From contig OZ024754.1 in the NCBI GenBank assembly GCA_964016885.1, positions 32,302,001-32,366,000 of the forward strand: a DNA stretch of 64,000 nt. Reading direction: 5' to 3'. The notes under the pieces are model-generated. The model saw only the letters and a list, made by a program, of their open reading frames with translations. It ran no database searches and had not been told where the DNA came from. A program made the translations under genes and the position numbers. Below are positions 1-60,169 of the stretch, one piece after another. Within the stretch, counting starts at the first letter, position 1. Each line of letters begins with the position of its first letter. The stretch is from Eledone cirrhosa (Eukaryota).

Positions 1-1559
1 TATGGCAGGATTTATAATAAATTGTTTATATATAATTATATAGAACTATAAACAAACAGTCTGATAGTCATGCCTGCATCGTCTCACACATTTACAACAA
101 AAAAATATATAATAATAAAATATATTTTTTGAAACCCAAATTAATAAAACCTTTCTAATTACTTGCGAAACAAAAATATAACTTTCACATTTCTTCCAAG
201 GCATTTTGACGTTTATCAGCCCCAATCCCAACTGAAGACCAGGAATGGTTAAACTAAGAATTTGCTTATTTGAATTTTAGAAATTAAAAAAAAACGAAAA
301 AAAAACGATTTATTATCTATACTTGATTCAGACCTATTTGCATTATGTTGCTGGCTGTTGTGACTATGATTTATATTAATCTGTACATGTTTCATTTGAT
401 ACCAAACTACCGGAAATTGCACCTGTTTCTATGATACAAAGCTGTTTGTTTTAAAGTGTTTGTGTTTATCTAAAAACCTTCCATCATAATTTTATATAAG
501 CACTTTTGTTAAGTTATGCTCCAAACACCAGTTAAATAGTGAGAAAGTTATATTACTAAATCCCTCCAAATTTTTTATTATTTTCAAAATTATTTGAAAA
601 TAATAGGCAATGTTTTCTAATCAAAATATACTAATGAAAGGGTTAAAGTGTTTATATTTATCTAAACACCGTCCAACATAATTTTATATAAGAACTTTTG
701 TTAAGTTATACTTCAAACACCAGCTAAATAATGAGAAAGTTATATTATTAAATCCCTCCAAATTCTTAATTATTTTCAAAATTACTTGAAAATCATAGGC
801 AGTGTTTTTTATTAGAAATATGGTAATGAAAGGGTTAAACAACAAGTAATATTTTGATATTTATTCTTGGTGAGGAATGTGTGGTCCTACTAAGTCTTTT
901 TTGTTGGGCTGTTTTGTAAAATCTCCTTGTGTTTCTTTTTTATAAGATTAATATGGGATAAAGAGTGAATGGTTGATTGAATAATATCCCAAACTACAGC
1001 ATAATCTATCATGTTGATACTATTCTAAGACTGAGTTATTTTCCATTGCATCCCACACCCTCTCCTAAGCCCAACTAACAATAACTGTCTTTTACACTTG
1101 TGCCTGAAGCAAATTCACAAGGCATTCAAAAAATAAATCTTCAATTTTATCAATGTCCATAAAACTTTCAGCAATAAATAACAAACAAAAGATTTCAACT
1201 TCATTCTCTATCGGAGTTATTATTCTGTCGGAATATAATGGGAACATTTATTGGAAAAGTCTAGGATCTCACCCATTAGAATAATCTAAAATACAAGCGT
1301 TTTAAGCCATTTTCTTTGGTACTGCAACAGTTAGCCTTATAGGGACCCATGACAAGCTTCTCTATTTTGCCCTATCCTCTTCATCCCCATTCACCAAACT
1401 AACTGCCCTGGCTTTAATTTCCTCTTGTCATCTTTAGCCATGTTTTTCTTGATCTTCATCATTGTGACCACAGTGAAACATTCCTGACAAAGTCTCTCCA
1501 CAATTCATCATTTTCCATTGTTCCTGGTAACTGTTCCCTACTGGGGTTTGTATCATCCA

Positions 1560-2085
1560 AGAGTTGATTGATGAAGGTTCAAGCAGGTCTCCCTCAACTG
1601 TGTCTCCCATAAGTTAGTTCCCACAATAGTAGCTTGTGTATAATACCCTGAGTTGGTCAATGAAGGTTCAAGCAGGTCTTCCATGCAGCTCCCCTTGCTT
1701 TGGTTCCCACAATAGTAACTTGTGTATAACACCCTGAGTTGATCAATGAAGGTTCAAGCAGGTCTTCCTCTACTGTCTCTTGTCAGTTAGTTCCCACAAT
1801 AGTAACTTGTGTATAACACCCTGAGTTGATCAATGAAGGTTCAAGCAGGCCTTCCTCTACTGTCTCCTGTCAGTTAGTTCCCACAATAGCAGCTTGTGTA
1901 TAACATCATGAGTTGATCAATGAAGGTTCAAGCAGGCCTTCCTCTACTGTCTCCTGTCAGTTAGTTCCCACAATAGCAGCTTGTGTATAACATCCTGAGT
2001 TGATCAATGAAGGTTCAAGCAGGTCTTCCTCTATGGCGTCTCCTGTCAGTTAGTTCCCACAATAGTAGCTTGTGTATAACATCAT
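1560..2085. repeat. Minisatellite, ~80 bp unit, ~6.5 copies
   Basis: Repeated GAGTTGATCAATGAAGGTTCAAGCAGG...TAGTTCCCACAATAG..CTTGTGTATAAC. Confidence 0.9.
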
Positions 2086-2489
2086 GCTTGCTTCTCCAGC
2101 AATGTCTACAAATCATAACCATCTTTGAACAATTGTAGTTATGTTGGGCAAGTTTCTTGGATTGAATTAGGAAGGAAAGGAATGGTATTGGTGGTGCTTC
2201 TGTCTTTTCATATCCTTGGGGAGCTATATACTATGGGCAACTATAACCTTTGGAGTTACTTCCATTGGATCAAGTTACTGTAAGCCAAGGAATATGTGAC
2301 CGAAAAATCGATGGTAGAAGTGGGTGGTGGCTTATATTCACCATCTAAACAATGTGTTGATTAGCTGCCTTGGCTTATAAATGGGGTTTGGATATTTGAC
2401 AATTTTTTTCAGACATAAAATAGTGTGTGTGTGTGTGTGTGGGGGGGGGGGGGATTATATTCAAGTACATAGGGTAATTGTTAACAGGT

Positions 2490-3229
2490 GTAAGTATATA
2501 TAAATCTCAGTGGAAGGAAGCTGCAGTAGAGGTAGACCAAAAAAGACCTGGGCAGAGGTGGTGAGAGCTGGTGCATGACCAATGGAGCATCAATGAGCAG
2601 AGAGAAAAACTGGATATAAAGAAAGATTGGATACAGTGTGCAGGGGAAGAGACTGCATTGGTAGAGAATGTACACAATACAGATCTTGGGTACACAAGAG
2701 GTAGTGGGGTAGCAGGCAAACTAACAGGAAGGGAAAACTTCATATGTGGTAAAGGTTCAGGGAAATTTGATAGAAGTGTCAGTGATAGGCACATTTTTCA
2801 AATGCAGGTAGGATCTATAGAGGTAGTTGATAGCTTCTGATACCTAGGTGATCAGATTATCAAGGGAGGAGGATGCTCCGAGGTCATAGTATCTGTAATA
2901 AGGACAGGATGAAAGAAGTTTAGGGAGCTGTTTCCTCTATTGATGATGAAGGGTTTCTCCCTACGAACGAAAGTAGTGTGCGAGAGTGAAGACTGCATTG
3001 TATGGACATGTGATGCACATGGAAGATGACCGCTGGGTGAAGAAATGTCAAGAAATCCCAGTGGAAGGAAGACCACAAAAAACACGGGCGGGGGTGGTGA
3101 GAGCTGACCTCAGTTCACTGAAGCTCACAGAGGAGATGAAGAAGGACCGTGATGAATGGAGAGATGCTGTGCTGAAAAGGACCCGTCCCACCCTTACAAG
3201 CAAGGAAAAGCGGACGTAAAATGATGATG
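2490..3229 (+). mobile_element. Degenerate RTE-clade LINE 3' fragment
   Basis: IEVVDSF*YLGD, IRTG*KKFRELFPLL, LYGHVMHMEDDRWVKKC, GRPQKT; ends GAAAAGCGGACGTAAAA(TGA)n. Confidence 0.8.
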
Positions 3230-4722
3230 TGTATGAAGGGTAACAGCTATATAAAGAAATGGTGAGCACTTGAAGTCAAAGGAACCTATGGAAAGGGAAG
3301 AGCTATGAAAATGAGGGATCATGTGGTGATGATTAATCTTATGTTGTTGAACCTCACTGAGATCAAGTTATCTGGCAACATGACATGCTGCAGAAGTCTT
3401 GCCTTCTCACACAACTAGGATGAAATAAGCATAAGGAGGATGGTCTCCACCTAGCAGCATGCTCCTAGTTTCGTAATGGGCACTTTAATGTTGTAACGGG
3501 GCAGTGCTGGTACCACGATAAAATGTTCCTAGTAAAGCCAAAACTGAGCATGATGTGGTCCCTGACCAGTCTGGCCTCATCATGCAAACATGGAAAATTA
3601 AACGGTGATTATATATATATATATATATATATATCGGGTCACGAATAACCGTTCCCCACCGCTTATTAAATTTTGCTAACCTAACCTATCTCCAGCGATA
3701 TTTTATTTTAAGTGGTAGCATTCCGGCGACAATTTATTTTCTTTATATACATAACAAAAAAGTACATTACTAGAAATCATATACGTTATAAAATAAATAG
3801 GATGAGTTGTGGTCTTAATATGGAAATTAAGCGACTTATTCTAGTTTTTTCAAAAACCAACGGAGACAACCTAGAAAAATTATCTCCCCCCCCCCGTGCT
3901 TATTCCACCACTCCCCTTATTTTTGGGGACCCGAGAGTACAGTGTAAAACAGGTCTCGACATTATTAACGGTACGAAGAAGGAGTTACATAAATAATTAG
4001 ATGTAGCAAAAAATCTTCATTTGAAACACGAGTCACTGATAACTTTTCGCCCTCCTGAACCTACAATATATAAATATTTCGTATATGTATGGACCCGTAA
4101 CGCCATTTTAAACATCTCCAACTGACGAGAGAGATAGAGTGATAGAGATATGGACGAAAGATCGACCCTAGTACTGAACTGGTACTTTCATCAACATCGA
4201 AAATATAGAAGTCAAAGTTGAACTCAGGTGGATTTGAACTTATAACACAAAGTATCCTACCAGATGTTTTAACGATATTGTCAATTCACCACCTATTTTA
4301 CAAAAAGAAGTTATACAATGATGGAAATATGAAAAAACAAAACGAAATAAAGAAAAAAGGGAGGAATGGGTAAAGAACGTCAGATCTGGCTGTATAGGAA
4401 AGGACTAAATGCCATAAATCTCTGTTGTTGAAGATTGGTTTCTGATTTAAGCACAAGGCCAACAATTTTGGTTAAGGGGGAAAGTCGACTAAATCGATCC
4501 CAGTGCATTACTGGTACTTTATTTTATCAACCTCGTAAGGATGAAAGGCAAAGCTAACATCGGCAGGATTTGAACTCAGATCGTAAAGGACCGTAACTCT
4601 GCCATAAAACATGTCCGACGCTACTAACTAAACAGGCACAACACAATTTTTACAGGTCTCCTTTTATAGATATTCACCGCCTTGTCCTGTCTTCTAATCT
4701 CCTGTGCTACTAACTGTCTAAC

Positions 4723-5040: not shown

Positions 5041-8000
5041 AAATCCTTTTGTATAAAAAATTACCTGTTTCGAATAAAATTTAATATGGGTGTCACAAAA
5101 ATTCCTACTTAAAAAAACCCCATTATTTTAAATTCTAACACTATTACGGGCTGCATTTAAAACCGTCCAGCTGTTAATTATCGTGTGATAAATAATAATA
5201 CTTATTACTTTTGCTATTTAGGTTTGTATAACGTTATATAAACAGTTGTCATTATTTCCACAGCAACATATGGTCTAGTTAAGTTGATTCTCGACAAGAG
5301 CCACGAGTTCTTTTCTCTCACACTTTACATATAATATCATTAACAATTTTCTGAGGAAGGAGCTCCGCGAAGTGAGGTGGCTGTTGCAGTGTGTGTCACT
5401 GGCCATTGTCCGCGGAAATGCCTTTGCTATTTTGTCCACGGGCCGCAGCCAAAATACCGCTCTGAACTAGATGTAGAATCTGTCACCTACCCTTTTTCTT
5501 TCTTGCTTTGTCAAATAGTCCTTGCTCCCCCCTCCCCCTTTTCTCTCATTTATGGCACTTAGTCATTTCCAATGCTGCTTTCATTTTCTGATTAGCTTTG
5601 GTGGGTTGAATCAGTGAACTTGTGTCAATCCTCGGTGGTAGCTATTTCACTGAGACTGCGAGTTGTGTTTGTGAGCAAGAGCAGGTTTCAATCCTCGGTG
5701 GTATCTATTTCACTGAGACTGCGAGTTGTGTTTGTGAGCAAGAGCAGGTTTCAATCCTCGGTGGTAGCTATTTCACTGAGACTGCGAGTTGTGTTTGTGA
5801 GCAAGAGCAGGTTTCAATCCTCGGTGGTAGCTATTTCACTGAGACTGCGAGTTGTGTTTGTGAGCAAGAACAGGTTTCAATCCTCGGTGGTAGCTATTTC
5901 ACTTAACACCGCCAACATCAATGGAAAAGGCTTCAACGCCGTGACTCCCCCATAAAAAAATATATATCGCCTTTGTATCTAATAAATAAAAGTTCAGTAT
6001 TTTCCCTGAATATTTCGAAATTAAACATAGAAAGTCAGTAATGTTTAAGATGGTCACTTCGTGTTCGATCTCACAGGGTGTCAGCTTATGCAACTGTCGT
6101 TTACTGCACTCTTGACACTACTACTACATAGTTTGTTTCACAACCACAAGGTTTTGGGTTCTGTCCCACCGCATGTCACAAGTGTCTCTATAAGCTCTGA
6201 CTGACCAATGGTAGGGAGTTGTTTAAAGGGAATATTGTTGCTATTTCTAGCAGGTCAGTGACAGTCTCGAAGGTCTCTTGTTGATTTAAATATAGTTAAA
6301 TGATATTTATATGGTATGGATATTTTTACCTTTGTTTTATTTTTACGCAACTTCGTTTGCCTTATCCCATATATATATATAATGTGTGTGTGTGTGTGTG
6401 TGTTGTATGTATGAAAATACCCTATTGGCAACGTTAAGGAAATTGTTATTGGATTGGTTGAATTGTTAGCCCTTCTTCTTTGCCCACTTATTCCTGAGAG
6501 AGTCGTGGGGGCACAGTCTTCAAACACTCCTTCCAGCAGGTCCTGTCAGAAGCAACTGATTTCGCTGGATCCCCAAGCGTGACCAGCCCTGTTCATGGCT
6601 GTTATCCAACCATCTTGCTTGGTGTTTAGCCCTGGGTCTACTGCTGGTTGCTTTTACACATAAAAATCTGTCCAGCAATTCTTTCCTGAGACATTCTAAC
6701 CACATGCCCATAGTATCGGAACTGTGATGTCTCAATTGTTAGCCCATCAGTCAAAAAGCGCCATATGGGACTTGAACCCCTAGGAATGTCCCTCCCCCAC
6801 CCCATGATTTTTTATTACTCCCACCTGTTATATATTCAATGTCTTTTTCAGTTTCTCAGTGAACTTACACGATTTTTTCAAAGATCAAAGAACACGGGGT
6901 CATTGAATATAACAATGAAACGATGTAAGTAGCAAATCTTTTCATGACTGGATTGTTAATGAAATAAACTCAATCTCAATTGATTAAGAATTTTGAGGGA
7001 TTTACTAAAATTATTTCATTACTAATATAGTAAATTAACATATCTTATATAAAATTGTTGGGAGACCTTAATTTAGATAGGAACCCTTTAAAATGTGTTG
7101 TTTTGTTTCATAGAATCAGGGTTAGGATTTTTAATGAGATAAACTCAATCTCAATTAAGAATTTTGAGGGATTTACTAAAATTATTTTATTACTAAGATT
7201 GTAACTTAACATATTCTTATATAAAATTATGTTGGAAGACCTTAATTTAGATAGGAACCCTTTAAAATGTGTTGTTTTGTTTCATAGAATCAGGGTTAGG
7301 ATGGTATTAAGAGAGTTAATAGAATGTGAATGACTTAAAGCAATCATTGCTTCTGGTAAGTGAAACTTGTCTATTGGTTTCGATTCTAGGCTTAATCCAG
7401 TCTGATTTACTTCTACTTCTAATGCCTTTGAGAACAACCAACCCTTTCTAGGGCTGGGGTCAACAAAATATATTACCAGTTGAGTATTAGAGTTGATTAA
7501 ATTGATTATTTGTTCCCCAAATTGTGTCATCATGTTGGGAATTATTATAATTATTATTTTTGACTAGTAGTATTAGTAGAGCGTCGGACAACATGCTTGC
7601 TTTGTAGCATAGAGCTAAGTCTCTTTACGCTCTTAGTTGAAATCCTGCCTTTCATCCTTATGGGGTTAATAAAATGAAGTACTTGCAATGCTCTGGAGTC
7701 GATTTAATTGACTTTCCCCTCTCCCAGATTTGTTGGCTTTGTGCCTAAATCAGAAACCATTGTTTTCATTTTCAACTTTTCATTTTAGATGATGGCCGGA
7801 CTAAGCCTAAACCAAAGACTAAACGTTTGGAACAAACCATGTCTCATGAAACGGTAGAATATAAATGTATTCTCAGAGCATCTTTAGGCAACAAGAAAAT
7901 TTCCACTGTAGTAAGTATATATATATCTATCTGTTTAAAATAGCAGGGGGCACAGGACATAGACAATGGAAAAAAAAACAACAGAAAAACGGACAGTCCT

Positions 8001-24144: not shown

Positions 24145-24198
<54 letters not shown>

Positions 24199-24203
24199 GT
24201 ATG

Positions 24204-24274
<71 letters not shown>

Positions 24275-24287
24275 GTATATATATATG

Positions 24288-24384
<97 letters not shown>

Positions 24385-24449
24385 GTATATATATATATAT
24401 ATGTATGTATATATATATGTATGTATATATATATATATATGTATGTATG

Positions 24450-24489
<40 letters not shown>

Positions 24490-24576
24490 TGTATGTATAT
24501 ATATATGTATATATATATATGTATATATATATATGTATATATATATATGTATATATATATATGTATATATGTATAT

Positions 24577-24630
<54 letters not shown>

Positions 24631-24847
24631 GTATATATGTATATATATATATGTATATATATATATGTATATATATATATATGTATATATATATGTATAT
24701 ATATATATATGTATATATATGTATATATATATATATATGTATATGTATATATATGTATATATATGTATATATATATGTATATATATATGTATATATATGT
24801 ATATATATATGTATATATATATGTATATATATGTATATATATATATG

Positions 24848-24894
<47 letters not shown>

Positions 24895-25235
24895 GTATAT
24901 ATATATGTATATGTATGTATATGTATATATATGTATATGTATATATATGTATATGTATATATATGTATATGTATATATATGTATATGTATATATATATAT
25001 ATGTATATATATATATGTGTATATATATATATGTGTATATATATATATGTATATATATATATGTGTATATATATATATGTATATATATATATATGTATAT
25101 GTATATATATGTATATATATATATATGTATATGTATATATATGTATATATATATATGTATATGTATATATATGTATATATATATATGTATATGTATATAT
25201 ATGTATGTATATGTATATATATATGTATGTATATG

Positions 25236-25293
<58 letters not shown>

Positions 25294-25308
25294 TGTGTAT
25301 ATATATAT
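24141..25308. repeat. ~1.17 kb interrupted (TA)n/(TATG)n microsatellite
   Basis: Almost only T/A with periodic G; similar tracts at 31142-31521, 32132-32845, 33242-33875 and throughout 37.7-60.4 kb. Confidence 0.97.
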
Positions 25309-25519
25309 TTCGTTTCTGAATTTGTTTAGCAAGATTCTTTATCTGAAATCGTGTGTTGAAACCGATATTGTTATACTTTGGGAGGGTCATGTTGCCAATA
25401 AGAAACACACGCACCAGTTGCTTTCACTTCAATTTAATTTATTATATATTTATAAATTTACAAATTTATAAATTTCTGGTTGGTTGGTTCCACAACCAGA
25501 TAGTTGTTTATATATATAT

Positions 25520-25564
25520 AGTCATAGTTCTTTCGTCACACACTCTGTGACCTCCTCAGTGACT
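25520..25564 (-). ncRNA. Hammerhead motif, mirror copy in the left arm
   Basis: Same as 30939-30983 but the core reads CTGAGGA (differs at the variable N7 position). Confidence 0.75.
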
Positions 25565-25852
25565 GGGGATTTCTTTCTTCGTTTCTGTGCCTTTCCTTTC
25601 TTCTATCCTACGCCATTTTGTTTGTGTGTGGGTTGCGTGCTCAGTTTGCGCATGCGCCACATCCGGGTGTCTGTGTGTGTTTGTGTTCATTTTTCTATTT
25701 TTCTATTTATATTTTTCTATTTGTTTGTTTATTTATTTATTTATTGTTGGTTGGTTGTTTGTTCTATGTGTGTGTGTGTTTTCATTTTGTCTTGTGTGTG
25801 TTTTCAATTGTGAGTTGTTTGTTCTATGTGTGTGTGTGTTTTCATTTTGTCC

Positions 25853-28039
25853 TTAATTGTAAGTTGTGATGTTGCTGTTCCACTCATATTTTCTATTTAA
25901 TTTTGGTTTTAATTCTTTTATGCTTACTGCCTCTGTAATTTGCCTAAACATTGCGTCTTTCTTGTGTGTGGATTCTATTTTTATTTCTATGCTCTCTAAT
26001 TTACCCCTGTGTTCTATCTTAGCATGTTGGTAGAGCACAGATGATTCTTTATTATCTTGGAGGTCTCGCCAGTGTTCATTTATTCGTTCCCCTATACTAC
26101 GAGCTGTCTCACCTATGTACACTATATTTTTGTTTCTACATTGTCCTTCAGTACATCTTATGCTATATACTACATTTCTAGTTCTACAGTTAATATGGGG
26201 GCTTATTTTACAGGTTATACATTTCTTATCTATACATGAGGGTCTTTGGAACGGGTATGTCTTGCTAATAAGTGTTTTTACGGAGGTACCAGGTCTTTCT
26301 ACTATCTTAATATTGAGATTATGTTTCTTTAGGGCCCTTCTAAATTTGTAGGCTAGTTCGCCTCTAGGGGTTGTATTGATGAACATTACACTCTGGTATT
26401 TATTGCTATCATACCATGAGTTTATTCTATTGGCCTTGTTCTTAGTTCTTTCTATTCTATTCCAAAATTTGCTCCTATACAAGGGGCAGGTCCCATTTAT
26501 GTCATTATTTACCATTTTTTCCCATTTGGTTCTGGCTCCTTTATACACTCTGATTCTATCTCTCTGATTGTAGCCAGAGAACTGCATACGGTGGATGAAG
26601 TGTTGTATGTGTCTCTCTAGTTCTTCGGGGTTGCACATGCGGGACACATTTCTCATCACCCGTACCAAATCCGCAATCAGTATGTTGATTTTGGTATGGT
26701 CCGAAATGGCCGAGTTTCGGTGGATCAGATGTTTGGAAGTCATGGGTTTGGCATAATGGGAATGGAGGATTTGTTTTTGGTTGTTAATTGTATCTAACCA
26801 GAGCTCTGTGTCTAGTACAGGTAATCGATGGTTGGGGTGTCTACTTGGGTAGTCTATAGTAACTCTAATGCTCTGGTGGATGGAGTTTGCTATTTGCTGG
26901 ATGCTTTCCATTGTGTTTTTCTCTAGTTCCTGACTGTTCTTTAGTGGGGGTGTCTTAACTACGATGTTTATATCATCTACGTAGCGGGAGTACATTATCA
27001 GGGTTAAGCTGTCTTCTAATTGTTCATTAAGTTTTTGTTTAAGTCTACTGTCCCACCATACCATGAATAAGTTAGCTATGTCGCCTACAATGCTAACACC
27101 AATGGCTGCTCCTTCCTCTTGGGCATATGTTTTACCATTAAATTTGAACATATGTTCCTTAAGGGTTAATTTTATGCTGGCCCCTACCGCATGTGCAATC
27201 ATTTTCTTCAGTTCATCGTGGTTTTCGGGTGTCCGTATGGCTCTGGTCCACCCGTTCCATCTATCTGTGTGGGTTTTCTTGGCCATTGAGGTAATGGTAG
27301 GTGGTCTGCCTCTTGCTGGTCTTGTAGGGCACAGGTTGCTAAGGTCATAAGTGTCTAGGTAACTATTACTATGGGTAAGCTTAAGTAGAAGTCCCAGCTC
27401 ACTGGTATCAATCCCACGGAACTCAACCTTGCTCTCGCTGATCATTTCGACGCATTTCTCCACAGCAAAATCCACGTCAATAGATGGATACAGGGACACA
27501 ACATCCATACTGCCTATTATGCAGTTTGTTAGGTCCCCAGATCGGTTACCCGCGCCGATTCTGCTGAGGAGGTCCTCCGTGCTGTCACACACATCTGGGG
27601 ACATCTCAATGATGGGGCGTATGATCAGGGAGAGGAAGTAGGACAGTCTGTAGTTACTAGCAATGTTAGCCCCACAGACTGGCCGTGTTGGTGGTCCCGC
27701 GACAGGGTCCCAGCCCGTTTTATGGTCTTTTCGAAGCCCATACAACGCCGGCACGTCATTGTTCCAGGCCTGGAAGTTGTTGGCAGTCCTTTTGTTGGGC
27801 TGCATTATATTTGTCCACATCACCATATGGGCATTGAGGGTTTTTTCTCTATCCTCATGCTCCTGTGGTGTTACCTCTCTTGTGTTAGTGATGTGGGGTT
27901 GCATTGCCTGGATGTAGTTTGGCAGGCTGTCAACCGACATTCTGCCAGACTTGTCTGTTGGAAAGCATGCTATCTCTCCATTACGCGAGCGCTGCATGAG
28001 CTTACGCAAGCCATTTGCAGATTCTTCTCCCAGTTGCTG
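25853..28039 (-). CDS. Second (inverted) copy of the PLE RT + GIY-YIG frame, more deeply 5'-truncated
   Basis: Translation matches the + copy from QQLGEESANG onward except four residues seen (IVGD/IAGD, RRAL/RRSL, NCRT/NCKT, EHRG/EHKG). Confidence 0.94.
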   Translation of the reverse strand, partial: QQLGEESANGLRKLMQRSRNGEIACFPTDKSGRMSVDSLPNYIQAMQPHITNTREVTPQEHEDREKTLNAHMVMWTNIMQPNKRTANNFQAWNNDVPALYGLRKDHKTGWDPVAGPPTRPVCGANIASNYRLSYFLSLIIRPIIEMSPDVCDSTEDLLSRIGAGNRSGDLTNCIIGSMDVVSLYPSIDVDFAVEKCVEMISESKVEFRGIDTSELGLLLKLTHSNSYLDTYDLSNLCPTRPARGRPPTITSMAKKTHTDRWNGWTRAIRTPENHDELKKMIAHAVGASIKLTLKEHMFKFNGKTYAQEEGAAIGVSIVGDIANLFMVWWDSRLKQKLNEQLEDSLTLIMYSRYVDDINIVVKTPPLKNSQELEKNTMESIQQIANSIHQSIRVTIDYPSRHPNHRLPVLDTELWLDTINNQKQILHSHYAKPMTSKHLIHRNSAISDHTKINILIADLVRVMRNVSRMCNPEELERHIQHFIHRMQFSGYNQRDRIRVYKGARTKWEKMVNNDINGTCPLYRSKFWNRIERTKNKANRINSWYDSNKYQSVMFINTTPRGELAYKFRRALKKHNLNIKIVERPGTSVKTLISKTYPFQRPSCIDKKCITCKISPHINCRTRNVVYSIRCTEGQCRNKNIVYIGETARSIGERINEHWRDLQDNKESSVLYQHAKIEHRGKLESIEIKIESTHKKDAMFRQITEAVSIKELKPKLNRKYEWNSNITTYN

Positions 28040-30650
28040 GATTAAAAGGAAAAGGAGATGGGAGACTAAGGACAAAGAGAATAACCAAGATGAACACACA
28101 GACACACAAAATAGGGTAGATAACAACATTGAGCCAGTGGAAAGAGACAGGAGTAATTATGAGAGACATAGAAACAACCATGAAGCTGAGGCTGCTGCTG
28201 TTGGTGGAAATAGAAACAACACAACTAACAATAACAATAGCACTAGTACACATAAAGCAGCAGCCTGGAACTCTCCGTTTTATAACCCCTCCGATAAATC
28301 ATTCGACCTACGACGAGTCCACGCCACGACTTTGCCATTTAACAAACGCACGCAGTTGCCGTCGCAGGTCGATGAACAAACAGAAGCACAATTTAGTATA
28401 GCTAAATCCGAACTTAGAAATATTATAGAACAGTATAGCAAGAAGCATAATAGAATAGAGGCGCAGCAACTGGGAGAAGAATCTGCAAATGGCTTGCGTA
28501 AGCTCATGCAGCGCTCGCGTAATGGAGAGATAGCATGCTTTCCAACAGACAAGTCTGGCAGAATGTCGGTTGACAGCCTGCCAAACTACATCCAGGCAAT
28601 GCAACCCCACATCACTAACACAAGAGAGGTAACACCACAGGAGCATGAGGATAGAGAAAAAACCCTCAATGCCCATATGGTGATGTGGACAAATATAATG
28701 CAGCCCAACAAAAGGACTGCCAACAACTTCCAGGCCTGGAACAATGACGTGCCGGCGTTGTATGGGCTTCGAAAAGACCATAAAACGGGCTGGGACCCTG
28801 TCGCGGGACCACCAACACGGCCAGTCTGTGGGGCTAACATTGCTAGTAACTACAGACTGTCCTACTTCCTCTCCCTGATCATACGCCCCATCATTGAGAT
28901 GTCCCCAGATGTGTGTGACAGCACGGAGGACCTCCTCAGCAGAATCGGCGCGGGTAACCGATCTGGGGACCTAACAAACTGCATAATAGGCAGTATGGAT
29001 GTTGTGTCCCTGTATCCATCTATTGACGTGGATTTTGCTGTGGAGAAATGCGTCGAAATGATCAGCGAGAGCAAGGTTGAGTTCCGTGGGATTGATACCA
29101 GTGAGCTGGGACTTCTACTTAAGCTTACCCATAGTAATAGTTACCTAGACACTTATGACCTTAGCAACCTGTGCCCTACAAGACCAGCAAGAGGCAGACC
29201 ACCTACCATTACCTCAATGGCCAAGAAAACCCACACAGATAGATGGAACGGGTGGACCAGAGCCATACGGACACCCGAAAACCACGATGAACTGAAGAAA
29301 ATGATTGCACATGCGGTAGGGGCCAGCATAAAATTAACCCTTAAGGAACATATGTTCAAATTTAATGGTAAAACATATGCCCAAGAGGAAGGAGCAGCCA
29401 TTGGTGTTAGCATTGCAGGCGACATAGCTAACTTATTCATGGTATGGTGGGACAGTAGACTTAAACAAAAACTTAATGAACAATTAGAAGACAGCTTAAC
29501 CCTGATAATGTACTCCCGCTACGTAGATGATATAAACATCGTAGTTAAGACACCCCCACTAAAGAACAGTCAGGAACTAGAGAAAAACACAATGGAAAGC
29601 ATCCAGCAAATAGCAAACTCCATCCACCAGAGCATTAGAGTTACTATAGACTACCCAAGTAGACACCCCAACCATCGATTACCTGTACTAGACACAGAGC
29701 TCTGGTTAGATACAATTAACAACCAAAAACAAATCCTCCATTCCCATTATGCCAAACCCATGACTTCCAAACATCTGATCCACCGAAACTCGGCCATTTC
29801 GGACCATACCAAAATCAACATACTGATTGCGGATTTGGTACGGGTGATGAGAAATGTGTCCCGCATGTGCAACCCCGAAGAACTAGAGAGACACATACAA
29901 CACTTCATCCACCGTATGCAGTTCTCTGGCTACAATCAGAGAGATAGAATCAGAGTGTATAAAGGAGCCAGAACCAAATGGGAAAAAATGGTAAATAATG
30001 ACATAAATGGGACCTGCCCCTTGTATAGGAGCAAATTTTGGAATAGAATAGAAAGAACTAAGAACAAGGCCAATAGAATAAACTCATGGTATGATAGCAA
30101 TAAATACCAGAGTGTAATGTTCATCAATACAACCCCTAGAGGCGAACTAGCCTACAAATTTAGAAGGTCCCTAAAGAAACATAATCTCAATATTAAGATA
30201 GTAGAAAGACCTGGTACCTCCGTAAAAACACTTATTAGCAAGACATACCCGTTCCAAAGACCCTCATGTATAGATAAGAAATGTATAACCTGTAAAATAA
30301 GCCCCCATATTAACTGTAAAACTAGAAATGTAGTATATAGCATAAGATGTACTGAAGGACAATGTAGAAACAAAAATATAGTGTACATAGGTGAGACAGC
30401 TCGTAGTATAGGGGAACGAATAAATGAACACTGGCGAGACCTCCAAGATAATAAAGAATCATCTGTGCTCTACCAACATGCTAAGATAGAACACAAGGGT
30501 AAATTAGAGAGCATAGAAATAAAAATAGAATCCACACACAAGAAAGACGCAATGTTTAGGCAAATTACAGAGGCAGTAAGCATAAAAGAATTAAAACCAA
30601 AATTAAATAGAAAATATGAGTGGAACAGCAACATCACAACTTACAATTAA
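28040..30650 (+). CDS. PLE polyprotein, 5'-truncated: reverse transcriptase + Cys-rich linker + C-terminal GIY-YIG endonuclease
   Basis: Motifs LYGLRKDHK, PTRPV, SMDVVSLYPSI, QEEGAAIG, RYVDDI, LPVLD; linker CIDKKCITC; NVVYSIRC..VYIGETARSIGERINEH..RQITEA..LN. The ORF-track start at 27951 lies inside the antisense arm and is not the native start. Confidence 0.95.
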
Positions 30651-30938
30651 GGACAAAATGAAAACACACACACACATAGAACAAACAACTCACAATTGAA
30701 AACACACACAAGACAAAATGAAAACACACACACACATAGAACAAACAACCAACCAACAATAAATAAATAAATAAACAAACAAATAGAAAAATATAAATAG
30801 AAAAATAGAAAAATGAACACAAACACACACATACACCCGGATGTGGCGCATGCGCAAACTGAGCACGCAACCCACACACAAACAAAATGGCGTAGGATAG
30901 AAGAAAGGAAAGGCACAGAAACGAAGAAAGAAATCCCC

Positions 30939-30983
30939 AGTCACTGAAGAGGTCACAGAGTGTGTGACGAAAGAACTATGACT
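30939..30983 (+). ncRNA. Minimal type I hammerhead ribozyme motif in the PLE 3' region
   Basis: AGTCA-CTGAAGA-G-GTCACA(GAGTG)TGTGAC-GAAA-GAAC-TA-TGACT: helix I AGTCA/TGACT, helix II, core boxes. PLEs are known to carry such motifs. Confidence 0.75.
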
Positions 30984-31278
30984 ATATATATATAAACAAC
31001 TATCTGGTTGTGGAACCAACCAACCAACCAGAAATTTATAAATTTGTAAATTTATAAATATATAATAAATTAAATTGAAGTGGAAGCAACTGGTGCGTGT
31101 GTTTCTTATTGGCAACATGACCCTCCCAAAGTATAACAATAATGTATATATATATATATGTGTATATATATATAGATATGTATGTATGCATATATATATG
31201 TGTATGTATGTATATATATATGTGTATGTATGTATATATATATGTGTATGTATGTATATATATATATGTATGTATGTA

Positions 31279-31311
<33 letters not shown>

Positions 31312-31521
31312 ATATATATGTATGTATATATATATGTATATGTATGTATATATATATGTATATGTATGTATATATATATGTATATGTATGTATATGTATG
31401 TATTTATATATATGTATGTATGTATAAGTATGTATGTATATATATGTATGTATGTATATATATGTATGTATATGTATATATATATGTATATATATATGTA
31501 TGTATATATGTATGTATATAT

Positions 31522-32131
31522 GTCAGGTCACCAGTTGGTGCTACTGGTAACATGTATCCCAGTACAACCTGTCTCATGGTCGGGTCGTTGGCGACTAAAC
31601 TGGCAACCCCACCAAGGTTTCTTGGTGAGGAGGGTGACTTTGGACATCCTGCAGGACCAAAAACAAAACCTGTCAAAGGGCAAGGGAGCTCTTAAGACTC
31701 AATAGCCATCCAAAATCACCGGGAGAGATGACCCCTTAGCCTTTGTCAAGGCAGAATTCTAGGAGAAGGAAAACTCTGATATAACACCTGCAACCCTGAT
31801 GGTATCCAATGATGTTGACTTGTTCTTCTTTTTGGTAAATATCATCTTGGTTAAGAGAGTGGGACTGGCTTTGTGCAGTGCCTTTGCTCACTATAAAAGC
31901 TTCACAGCACAGGCATTGCTTTATATCTGGAGATATCTCTGCACTTGTCATCACATGGTACCATGGGCCCTGCACTATGTGTCAATAATGGTCACAAGTG
32001 TAGTCTTTGTACCAGAGTTTTCAAGTCGCTGGCTGGACTAAAAAGTCACATTCGTTCAGCGCATCGGTAGGGGTTCTCCTACATGGATATAAAGTAGTGG
32101 CCGTACTCGAAAACGAGTTGGCAGCCACCAT
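31522..32131 (+). mobile_element. Non-autonomous bipartite RTE-derived element (~610 bp)
   Basis: RTE/BovB-like 5' UTR signature CTAGGAGAAGGAAAACTCTGA..AAACC joined to a C-terminal zinc-finger remnant [22 protein letters not shown] (31999-32070) and a short 3' end; second copy with the same termini at 45494-46101. Confidence 0.7.
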
Positions 32132-32276
32132 GTATATATATATGTATATATATATGTATGTATATATATATGTATGTATATATATATGTATATATATATA
32201 TATGTATGTATATATATATGTATGTATATATGTATGTATATATGTATATATATATGTATGTATATATATATGTATG

Positions 32277-36368: not shown

Positions 36369-37150
36369 GGGTCTCCGTCGGTAACGACGACGACGGTGAG
36401 TGTTCCAGTTCATAAAGACAGGGTCTCCGTCGGTAACGACGACGACGGTGAGTGTTCCAGTTCAGAAAGACAGGGTCTCCGTCGGTAACGACGACGACGG
36501 TGAGTGTTCCAGTTCATAAAGACAGGGTCTCCGTCGGTAACAACGACGACGGTGAGTGTTCCAGTTCATAAAGACAGGGTCTCCGTCGGTAACGACGACG
36601 ACGGTGAGTGTTCCAGTTCAGAAGGACAGGGTTTCCGTCGGTAACGACGACGACGGTGAGTGTTCCAGTTCATAAAGACAGGGTCTCCGTCGGTAACGAC
36701 GACGACGGTGAGTGTTCCAGTTCAGAAGGACAGGGTCTCCGTCGGTAACGACGACGACGGTGAGTGTTCCAGTTCATAAAGACAGGGTCTCCGTCGGTAA
36801 CGACGACGACTGTGAGTGTTCCAGTTCAGAAGGACAGGGTCTCCGTCGGTAACGACGACGACGGTGAGTGTTCCAGTTCATAAAGACAGGGTCTCCGTCG
36901 GTAACGACGACGACGGTGAGTGTTCCAGTTCATAAAGACAGGGTCTCCGTCGGTAACGACGACGACGGTGAGTGTTCCAGTTCATAAAGACAGGGTCTCC
37001 GTCGGTAACGACGACGACGGTGAGTGTTCCAGTTCATAAAGACAGGGTCTCCGTCGGTAACGACGACGACGGTGAGTGTTCCAGTTCATAAAGACAGGGT
37101 CTCCGTCGGTAACGACGACGACGGTGAGTGTTCCATCTCAGAAGGACAGG
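36369..37150. repeat. GC-rich minisatellite, 52 bp unit, ~15 copies
   Basis: GGGTCTCCGTCGGTAACGACGACGACGGTGAGTGTTCCAGTTCA(T/G)AA(A/G)GACA; no spacers. Confidence 0.95.
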
Positions 37151-37181
37151 ACCTCCGATGGCGATTTCGTACACACATGTA

Positions 37182-58736: not shown

Positions 58737-58827
<91 letters not shown>

Positions 58828-59639
58828 GTGTATATCAATAGAAGAGCAAGGGGGGGGGGAGGGAGAGAAAGAGAATGAGATACAGAGAAGAGAAAGAGAT
58901 GGGTAGGAGAGAAAAAGAAGAAGAGCAAAATAAATTGAGCAAGAGGAGAGAAACAGGCGAAGAAGAGGAGAGAATAGAAGGAGAGAAAGAAGAGAAAAGG
59001 AGAGAAAGAGAAGGAGAGAAAGAGAAGGAGAGAACGAGAGGAGAGAAACAGGAGTTAAAGAGGGGGAAAAGAATGAGAGGAGAGAACGAAGGGGGAGATA
59101 GAGAAGGAGAGATAGAGAAAGAGAAAAAGAACAAGCTGAATCTTTCTCCTCTGTTTTCTGGTCAGCATATGAAGAGAGGTATGTTAAGTGACCCCCCCCC
59201 TCTCATATATCTGACAGTTGTTCTAACACCTGCCGAGGGGAACCCCTACAATGTCAAGAAGATATAATAACCTTTTTTGTTGCACCCAACGCAACCGTTA
59301 GACAGGAAATACCTTTGACATTCCAGCTCACCAGCCAATGTATATGTGGGTATGTATTGTTTCTACTTTTGGCACAAGGCCAGCAATTATCCCAGTGCAT
59401 TACTGGTACTTTATTTTATCGACCCCGTAAGGATGAAAGGCAAAGTTAACCTCGGCGAAATTTGAACTCAGAATGGCAAGGGCCGTAACTCTATGCATCA
59501 AAGCATGGCGTCCGACCGTGCGTATGTACACAAAATTTTTACCCATCTCTAGGCCCACGGACAGTTCACAAAGATTAATACACAACCAGCAAACTGATGT
59601 TGTGTGTGTGTGTGTGTGCATTGTGTATGTGTGTGTGAG

Positions 59640-59866
<227 letters not shown>

Positions 59867-60169
59867 TATGCATGTATATATGCATATGTATATATATATA
59901 TAACATATATATGTATATATATGTAATATGTATATATATAATATATATATATGTATATATATATGCATGTATATATGCATATGTATATATATATGTATAT
60001 ATATATAACATATATATGCGTTTACAGATTGACTTTGTTAGTTTCAGAAGATCCGTTAAGGGTGAAAGCAGCGATTCTTCGCTTAAACTTTAATCTGTTA
60101 TTTTAATAAATATAATATATTATATATATATAATATATATATAATATATTATATATATATAATTATATA

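What the first reader, a model, noticed from the sequence alone, without database searches (positions are those of the whole stretch)
25309..31141. 5.8 kb palindromic Penelope-like retroelement with two open RT + GIY-YIG frames
Seen: arms 25366-28039 and 28464-31141 are reverse complements with no net indel in the coding part. I noticed about 7 substitutions and one 4-nt CAAC indel by eye (not a full alignment). The arms diverge head-to-head around a 424 bp spacer that is simply more 5' ORF of the + copy, so both copies are 5'-truncated, at different points. Established: PLEs often carry an inverted upstream pseudo-LTR. Inference: here the inversion covers the whole catalytic region, the insertion is very young, and it may record one event with two cDNA syntheses or a template switch. 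Read-through transcription would give a ~2.7 kb hairpin, a substrate for small-RNA pathways or ADAR.
Basis: partly seen in the sequence, partly recalled or inferred. Interest (0 to 1): 0.85.

Follow-up and report, generated by a model that had tools for sequence, protein, structure and literature searches.

The report
Two-armed Penelope-like insertion, unusual polymerase
This 5.8-kb palindrome is two front-truncated copies of a Penelope-like jumping gene joined head to head, which is the usual way this very abundant family lands in this genome; the arms were likely copied from one template starting at two points 60 bases apart, and the element's reverse transcriptase carries a roughly 70-residue insert missing from the standard members of its kind that we compared.

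Summary
The palindrome is real in the assembly: 7 substitutions, one 4-nt indel, a unique junction and unmirrored flanks. Read support for the junction is inconclusive. It is not a one-off: 59 of 79 sampled loci of this family are head-to-head, two have longer arms, and the layout is published for Penelope-like elements. Both copies lack the ORF's first 400+ codons; their age (about 0.4 My) is typical of the family.

The family adds two constraints. Exactly one end carries the 60-nt tail in 54 of 55 scorable insertions. Partner arms disagree at only 2 of 597 polymorphic-site comparisons, against 124 expected for unrelated copies. Each arm here holds sequence the other lacks, which excludes simple fold-back. 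The likely mechanism: both target strands prime on one template haplotype at two start sites.

The RT motif A-to-B spacing is 128 residues (123-141 in all 154 measurable proteins), against 58 in a canonical family of the same genome. This fits no C-terminal-endonuclease clade in Craig 2021. The scan noted the one-tail rule before in another genome; another note reported two different templates.

The parts
24145..25308 (.). left (TA)n-type microsatellite, likely target
25307..25366 (-). 60-nt 3' tail (first 60 nt of the family unit), on this arm only; ends at an AAT|AT site
25367..28039 (-). minus arm: 5'-truncated copy, unit 1642-4313
25520..25564 (-). minimal hammerhead-ribozyme motif (CUGAGGA...GAAA); activity untested
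   Evidence: sequence, mirror of the + arm motif; its minimum-energy fold keeps helix II only
25853..28039 (-). open frame, 728 codons, RT + GIY-YIG, N-terminal 547 codons missing
28039..28040 (.). head-to-head junction, 1-nt microhomology, single copy in the assembly
28040..28463 (+). spacer: unit 1218-1641, ORF sequence held only by the + arm
28040..31140 (+). plus arm: 5'-truncated copy, unit 1218-4313, no tail
28041..30650 (+). open frame, 869 codons, RT + Zn linker + GIY-YIG, N-terminal ~405 codons missing
28998..29384 (+). RT motif A to motif B region, 128 aa, about 70 aa longer than in canonical PLEs, at the position of the telomerase insertion-in-fingers
30267..30317 (+). CX4CX2C-X7-C linker of the short Nematis type
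30330..30650 (+). GIY-YIG endonuclease (VVY...YIG) with two inner Cys and His residues; model matches the I-TevI catalytic domain
30939..30983 (+). minimal hammerhead-ribozyme motif (helix I 5 bp, CUGAAGA, helix II 6 bp, GAAA); activity untested
31142..31523 (.). right (TA)n-type microsatellite, likely target

Best explanation
This is a single insertion of a high-copy, TA-targeting Penelope-like retrotransposon, in which both cut strands of the target likely primed reverse transcription on the same template, probably one RNA, at two AAT|AT start sites 60 nt apart, and the two truncated cDNAs were then likely joined end to end. Shown: the anatomy, the one-tail rule, the haplotype agreement of partner arms, and that neither arm is a sub-copy of the other. 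Inferred: nicking of both strands, use of one RNA molecule with the outer primer displacing the inner cDNA, and joining by 0-4 nt of microhomology or a few added bases. Neither copy is likely autonomous, since both lack the ORF start and a sense-facing upstream pseudo-LTR. The 7 differences are best read as later neutral mutations, about 0.4 My old.
For: Layout: head-to-head junctions in 59 of 79 loci, and 27 pairs among the first 100 exact 3'-end hits on contig 1, unselected for length. Tails: exactly one end tailed in 54 of 55 scorable junctions; 25 of 25 in the sample whose query lacked the tail; 25 of 27 in the unselected sample. The tail lies on the longer arm 31 times and on the shorter 23 times. 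Template: partner arms differ at 2 of 597 polymorphic-site comparisons against 123.8 expected (49 pairs) and share 47 alleles private to their locus. Age: at six of the 7 window substitution sites the odd allele is absent or rare (0, 0, 0, 0, 0 and 3 segments) elsewhere, at the seventh 4 of 163; arm differences are overdispersed (p 4e-7) and singletons look neutral (114 synonymous, 281 non-synonymous, 12 stops). Biochemistry: PAc cleaves and extends both strands and starts at two adjacent internal sites that match the tail (PMC11167929).
Against: Genomic data cannot tell one RNA molecule from two RNAs of one source locus. The window pair alone proves little: 0 of 22 discordant, but 20% of unrelated copies score the same, and copy L046 is closer to each arm (5 and 6 differences) than the arms are to each other (7). 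Two of the 27 unselected pairs carry tail sequence on both sides; L157 probably runs on into a tandem unit, L134 is unexplained. One pair has no tail (L106). In PAc the start site did not differ between strands and was not homologous to the cut DNA. An unchecked scan note reports two templates in another genome (e1-7808845). 20 of 79 loci showed no scored second arm.
Confidence: 0.6

Rival explanations
1. Two RNA molecules from one active source locus, held by an asymmetric protein dimer, each prime one strand; one uses the outer start site and one the inner.
For: Explains the haplotype agreement if few sources are active per cell or the protein binds in cis. A PAc dimer is predicted (PMC11167929). 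Needs no strand displacement.
Against: Needs an extra rule to give one tail in 54 of 55 cases. Tandem units within one arm also share alleles: 25 shared minor or private alleles against 2 discordant shared-minor alleles in 17 tandems, which re-reading one template explains simply.
Confidence: 0.2
2. The cDNA folds back and self-primes, so the second arm is a DNA copy of the first (self-priming was proposed in PMC3846280).
For: Predicts identical haplotypes. Some junctions are near-symmetric (L083, 2927/2927). Published for Adineta elements, on an antisense template (passages).
Against: A DNA copy cannot hold sequence its template lacks. Here the - arm alone has the tail and the + arm alone has the 424-nt spacer, and the tail is on the shorter arm in 23 of 54 insertions. 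A variant on an antisense template was not tested.
Confidence: 0.08
3. Independent insertions or templates were later homogenised by arm-to-arm gene conversion.
For: Palindrome arms can convert each other (general knowledge, recalled).
Against: Arms keep private differences (137 counted) while agreeing at 595 of 597 polymorphic sites. Conversion would not give the one-tail rule.
Confidence: 0.06
4. The palindrome is an assembly or read fold-back artefact.
For: No listed record bridged the junction. Palindromes are prone to chimeras (general knowledge).
Against: The arms differ by substitutions on both sides, only one has a tail, the flanks are unmirrored, the junction is unique, and the geometry recurs with different junctions at dozens of loci.
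Confidence: 0.04

Closest known systems
Canonical C-terminal EN+ Penelope-like insertions (D. virilis Penelope, PMC2377424 Fig. 1C; Pen2a_Av, PMC3846280; scheme in PMC8557442 Fig. 2)
   Same: One ORF with RT then GIY-YIG; partial tandems; an adjacent inverted 5'-truncated copy; a tail often at one end only; hammerhead motif in the 3' repeat.
   Different: Tail 60 nt rather than 30-40; DKS instead of DKG; RT A-to-B spacing 128 rather than about 57-60; both arms long enough to hold RT and EN, which is the long end of a continuous range.
Nematis clade
   Same: Short CX2-5CxxC linker, 7 residues before the next Cys, as in Nematis_C4 (Craig Fig. S2); two Cys inside the GIY-YIG core.
   Different: The nematode RTs in Fig. 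S1 have no long insert (C. remanei spacing about 60, counted by eye). No tree against reference Nematis was built.
Naiad/Chlamys
   Same: Extra sequence between RT motifs A and B; Naiads prefer (TA)n; same tandem and inverted layouts.
   Different: Their endonuclease is N-terminal and they mostly lack canonical hammerheads. The Naiad insert is about 20 aa; here it is about 70.
PAc (Poseidon of Anolis), PMC11167929
   Same: Two adjacent start sites that define the tail; AT-rich targets; both strands cut and extended.
   Different: Here both start sites read AAT|AT and could pair with the TA target, and the two sites are used on opposite ends almost without exception.
Telomerase reverse transcriptase
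   Same: Best fold matches of the model; A-to-B spacing of similar size (human about 115, counted by eye from Fig. S1).
   Different: About 10-12% identity; a C-terminal endonuclease; the insert is predicted helical and looped, and homology to the TERT insertion is not shown.

Membership tests
EN+ Penelope-like element | telomerase-like RT and GIY-YIG endonuclease in one ORF | tested here: met
   Model pLDDT 92; top fold hits are TERTs; I-TevI Z 10.0, rmsd 2.2 over 88 residues; profile match to a canonical PLE protein, probability 99.3
EN+ Penelope-like element | partial tandems, inverted truncated copy and optional tail | tested here: met
EN+ Penelope-like element | hammerhead motif in the 3' repeat | tested here: met
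   Core and helices match the minimal type of PMC4209133; Rfam gave no hammerhead match; cleavage not tested
EN+ Penelope-like element | target-site duplication | not testable with these tools
   Both ends lie in TA repeats
canonical C-terminal EN+ clades | CCHH motif in the endonuclease | tested here: met
   Two Cys between VVY and YIG, His residues downstream
canonical C-terminal EN+ clades | no insertion between RT motifs A and B | tested here: not met
   128 aa here; 123-141 in 154 of 154 measurable proteins of 266; 58 in 20 of 20 control loci
canonical C-terminal EN+ clades | DKG motif | tested here: not met
   DKS here and in 68 of 95 proteins with a match
Nematis | short CX2-5CxxC linker | tested here: met
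   Spacer 7 aa in 25 of 34 measurable proteins; Craig Fig. S2
Nematis | RT groups with reference Nematis in a tree | not tested
   No labelled reference proteins were available as tool sequences
Neptune | long spacer (about 25-30 aa) after CxxC | tested here: not met
   7 aa here against the Neptune rows of Fig. S2
Penelope/Poseidon | no Zn-finger linker | tested here: not met
   Linker present
Hydra | CCHH absent, CxCX5C linker, DKT, no insert | tested here: not met
Naiad/Chlamys | N-terminal endonuclease | tested here: not met
   Endonuclease is C-terminal

The most novel reading that the evidence does not exclude
This family represents an undescribed clade of C-terminal-endonuclease Penelope-like elements of marine invertebrates (octopus, sea cucumber, jellyfish) with a telomerase-sized insertion in the RT fingers. 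It copies one RNA twice by strand displacement from two start sites, so each integration builds a palindrome with exactly one tail, and thousands of dated genomic copies record the mechanism.
Probability: 0.3. Interest if true: 0.75.

Novelty: new variant of a known kind. Interest (0 to 1): 0.45.

Why it matters
How Penelope-like elements form their tandem and inverted insertions is named as an open task in PMC8557442. The one-tail rule and the same-haplotype rule are two countable constraints that any model must meet, and a mixed-RNA assay on the existing PAc system can test them directly. A large fingers insertion in a C-terminal-endonuclease element would go against the published split, in which only N-terminal-endonuclease elements (and sporadic Coprina) have one, and bears on the link to telomerase. 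With 26,960 exact 3'-end matches, the family is also a major source of inverted repeats in this genome.

Tried and rejected
Junction reads: 4 of the 24 listed runs were laid on 27500-28460. They showed the normal family continuity and no listed record with 31 letters on both sides of the junction; only the longest pieces are listed, so this is inconclusive. No RNA holder was listed, so expression, small RNAs and editing are untested.

ADAR trace in genomic copies: singleton A>G 5.95 against T>C 8.14 per 10,000 (p 0.12). A>G makes up 13 of 47 alleles shared by both arms against 61 of 476 singletons (p 0.013); this is post hoc and not lopsided against T>C, so it is a lead only.

Truncation hotspots: 12 coincidences among 89 points against 10.0 in the null (p 0.31). 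Propagation of the palindrome as a unit: rejected, the junction is unique. Outer versus inner tandem unit as the partner arm's template: too few differences.

Libraries: Rfam gave only microsatellite-driven miRNA and snoRNA hits below threshold. Pfam gave only weak RVT_1. PDB by sequence gave only I-TevI at E 0.18. The pattern was mistyped and its zero means nothing. A dimer prediction for the N-terminal region was not obtained, and no tree against labelled clades was built, so both stay open.

Literature: ten paper searches showed no description of a C-terminal-EN clade with this insert, nor of the same-haplotype rule. Subscription papers (Arkhipova 2006, Evgen'ev and Arkhipova 2005, Lyozin 2001) and Repbase were not seen.

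Full report
Observation. The two arms, 25366-28039 and 28464-31141, are reverse complements with 7 substitutions and one 4-nt indel, around a 424-nt spacer. Both frames are open. The junction shares 1 nt and its 29-mer occurs once in the 3.0-Gb assembly. The flanks beyond the microsatellites share only two short dispersed repeats, not in mirror position. Four of 24 listed runs were laid on the junction; no listed record bridged it, which is inconclusive. The closest named protein is an Octopus vulgaris hypothetical protein at 70% identity, so the host is probably an octopod (inference).

The family. A natural full unit (L041) is 4313 nt with a 1275-codon open frame. The + arm starts at unit position 1217/1218 and has no tail; the - arm starts at 1642 and has a 60-nt tail. 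A 25-mer from the 3' end has 26,960 exact matches in the genome, several subfamilies included. The ends of two-armed insertions nearly all abut TA repeats. A minimal hammerhead motif of the type in PMC4209133 (passages read) lies at 30939-30983, is conserved in about 145 family segments, and folds into helices I and II.

The palindrome is the family's normal form. Of 79 loci (78 top hits of three searches plus the window), 59 have a head-to-head junction. These samples favour long, similar copies. Among the first 100 exact 3'-end hits on contig 1 there are 27 head-to-head pairs within 9 kb, spanning 102-3868 bp, median 572 (my notebook's 486 is a miscount). The window is therefore in the long tail, but L042 (shorter arm 3426 nt) and L070 (3096) exceed it (2672; L050 tops that list only through a short internal piece). 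A second, canonical PLE family in the same genome has both arms matching RT and EN in 11 of 69 loci. The layout is published: PMC8557442 Fig. 2 legend and section 6, PMC2377424 Fig. 1C legend (passages) and PMC3846280 (passages).

Age. At the 7 window substitution sites the odd allele is seen in 0, 0, 0, 0, 0, 3 and 4 other segments; three lie on the - arm and four on the + arm. The rate, 2.8 per kb, matches the median of 20 long pairs (2.7). Rates are overdispersed among pairs (chi2 66, df 19), so they reflect age rather than a fixed RT error rate, and singletons look neutral while shared variants are mostly synonymous (10 against 5). At the rate used in PMC13282606 (0.0036 per My, passages) the age is 0.39 My (0.16-0.8). 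That is young, but ordinary here.

Constraint 1, one tail. Of 61 junctions, 54 have exactly one tailed end, 1 has none and 6 could not be scored. The sample whose query lacked the tail gives 25 of 25, with 4 unscored. Two of the 54 rows (L104) look like one duplicated event. The unselected sample gives 25 of 27, with 2 showing tail sequence on both sides. Of 33 apparently single loci fetched (34 of 46 unpaired hits), 9 show by eye an inverted arm, each fitting the rule. Craig 2021 already says the tail is often at one end only, and scan note e1-9915070 reports the same rule in another genome.

Constraint 2, one haplotype. In 49 pairs (12 skipped for short overlap or low identity), partner arms disagree at 2 of 597 polymorphic-site comparisons, against 123.8 expected from unrelated copies, and 19 of 20 long pairs have none. 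Partner arms share 47 alleles seen at no other sampled locus. Tandem units inside one arm also agree. For the window alone the test is weak, since 20% of unrelated copies are equally concordant. Scan note e1-7808845 reports two templates in another genome; I could not check it.

Mechanism. Both outer ends are 3' ends, so both target strands were likely primed. Each arm holds sequence the other lacks, and the tail is on the shorter arm in 23 of 54 cases, so one arm is not a DNA copy of the other. PAc in vitro cuts and extends both strands and starts at two adjacent sites that define the tail (PMC11167929, parts 1-2 of 4 read). The simplest fit is one RNA with two AAT|AT start sites 60 nt apart, each taken by one target strand, with the outer cDNA displacing the inner one. 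The two truncated cDNA ends then join; the commonest junctions have 1-4 nt of overlap or a few added bases. One molecule, displacement and joining are inferred. Two RNAs from one source remain possible, and so does a circular template as proposed in PMC4209133.

The protein. The model (pLDDT 92, 104 sequences) matches telomerases best and, at its C-terminus, the I-TevI catalytic domain. The linker is of the short Nematis type. The distance from motif A to motif B is 128 aa, and 123-141 in all 154 measurable proteins of 266 (my regular expressions measured only those). It is 58 in 20 of 20 loci of the canonical family in this genome and 60 in P0359. Counted by eye from Craig Fig. S1 (supplement parts 53-54), it is about 57-60 for Penelope, Nematis and Neptune, 84 for one Naiad and 115 for human TERT. 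The profile alignment shows the gap directly. Named relatives come from octopus, a sea cucumber and a jellyfish. Craig 2021 (sections 6, 11, 12 and passages read) assigns such an insertion to N-terminal-EN elements and sporadic Coprina. The element therefore works like a canonical PLE but fails a stated feature of each C-terminal clade; without a reference tree I do not file it in any.

Verdict. The flagged palindrome is real in the assembly and ordinary for its family. What lifts it is the family-level evidence on mechanism and the long RT insert. It is a new variant of a known kind; interest 0.45.

Noticed in passing
window 59638-59757: Older relative's 3' end with its tail (78% identity), running into a TA tract; no inverted arm found within 58801-60000.
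   Followed up: partly
window 43676-44209 (+) and 51886-52284 (-): Open frames resembling restriction-like endonuclease ends of non-LTR elements (resemblance recalled; Pfam gave no hit).
   Followed up: partly
window 31521-32168 and 45457-46356: Dispersed repeat at 91% identity in opposite orientations, each beside a TA tract.
   Followed up: no
window 27996-30650 (+): An ATG in the antisense of the - arm is in frame across the junction with the + ORF; probably chance.
   Followed up: partly
L103-L107: Several insertions with arms cut at unit 4049-4065, four of them as ~256-bp inverted pairs; may be a non-autonomous form or mark the transcript start.
   Followed up: no
L070 204-3313: Another copy truncated at the same unit position (1218) as the window's + arm, but with a different partner; no general hotspot excess.
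   Followed up: partly
L111-L130: A second young PLE family in this genome (DKG, A-to-B spacing 58 aa, modified Cys linker), also often head-to-head.
   Followed up: partly
L095 (unit 4258, 4281, 4293) and L099 (unit 4215, 4227): Clusters of A>G shared by both arms in the 3' UTR; possibly RNA editing of the template fixed in DNA.
   Followed up: partly
window 36369-37157, 1561-2081, 5625-5903: Tandem arrays with 52-, 87- and 63-bp units.
   Followed up: no
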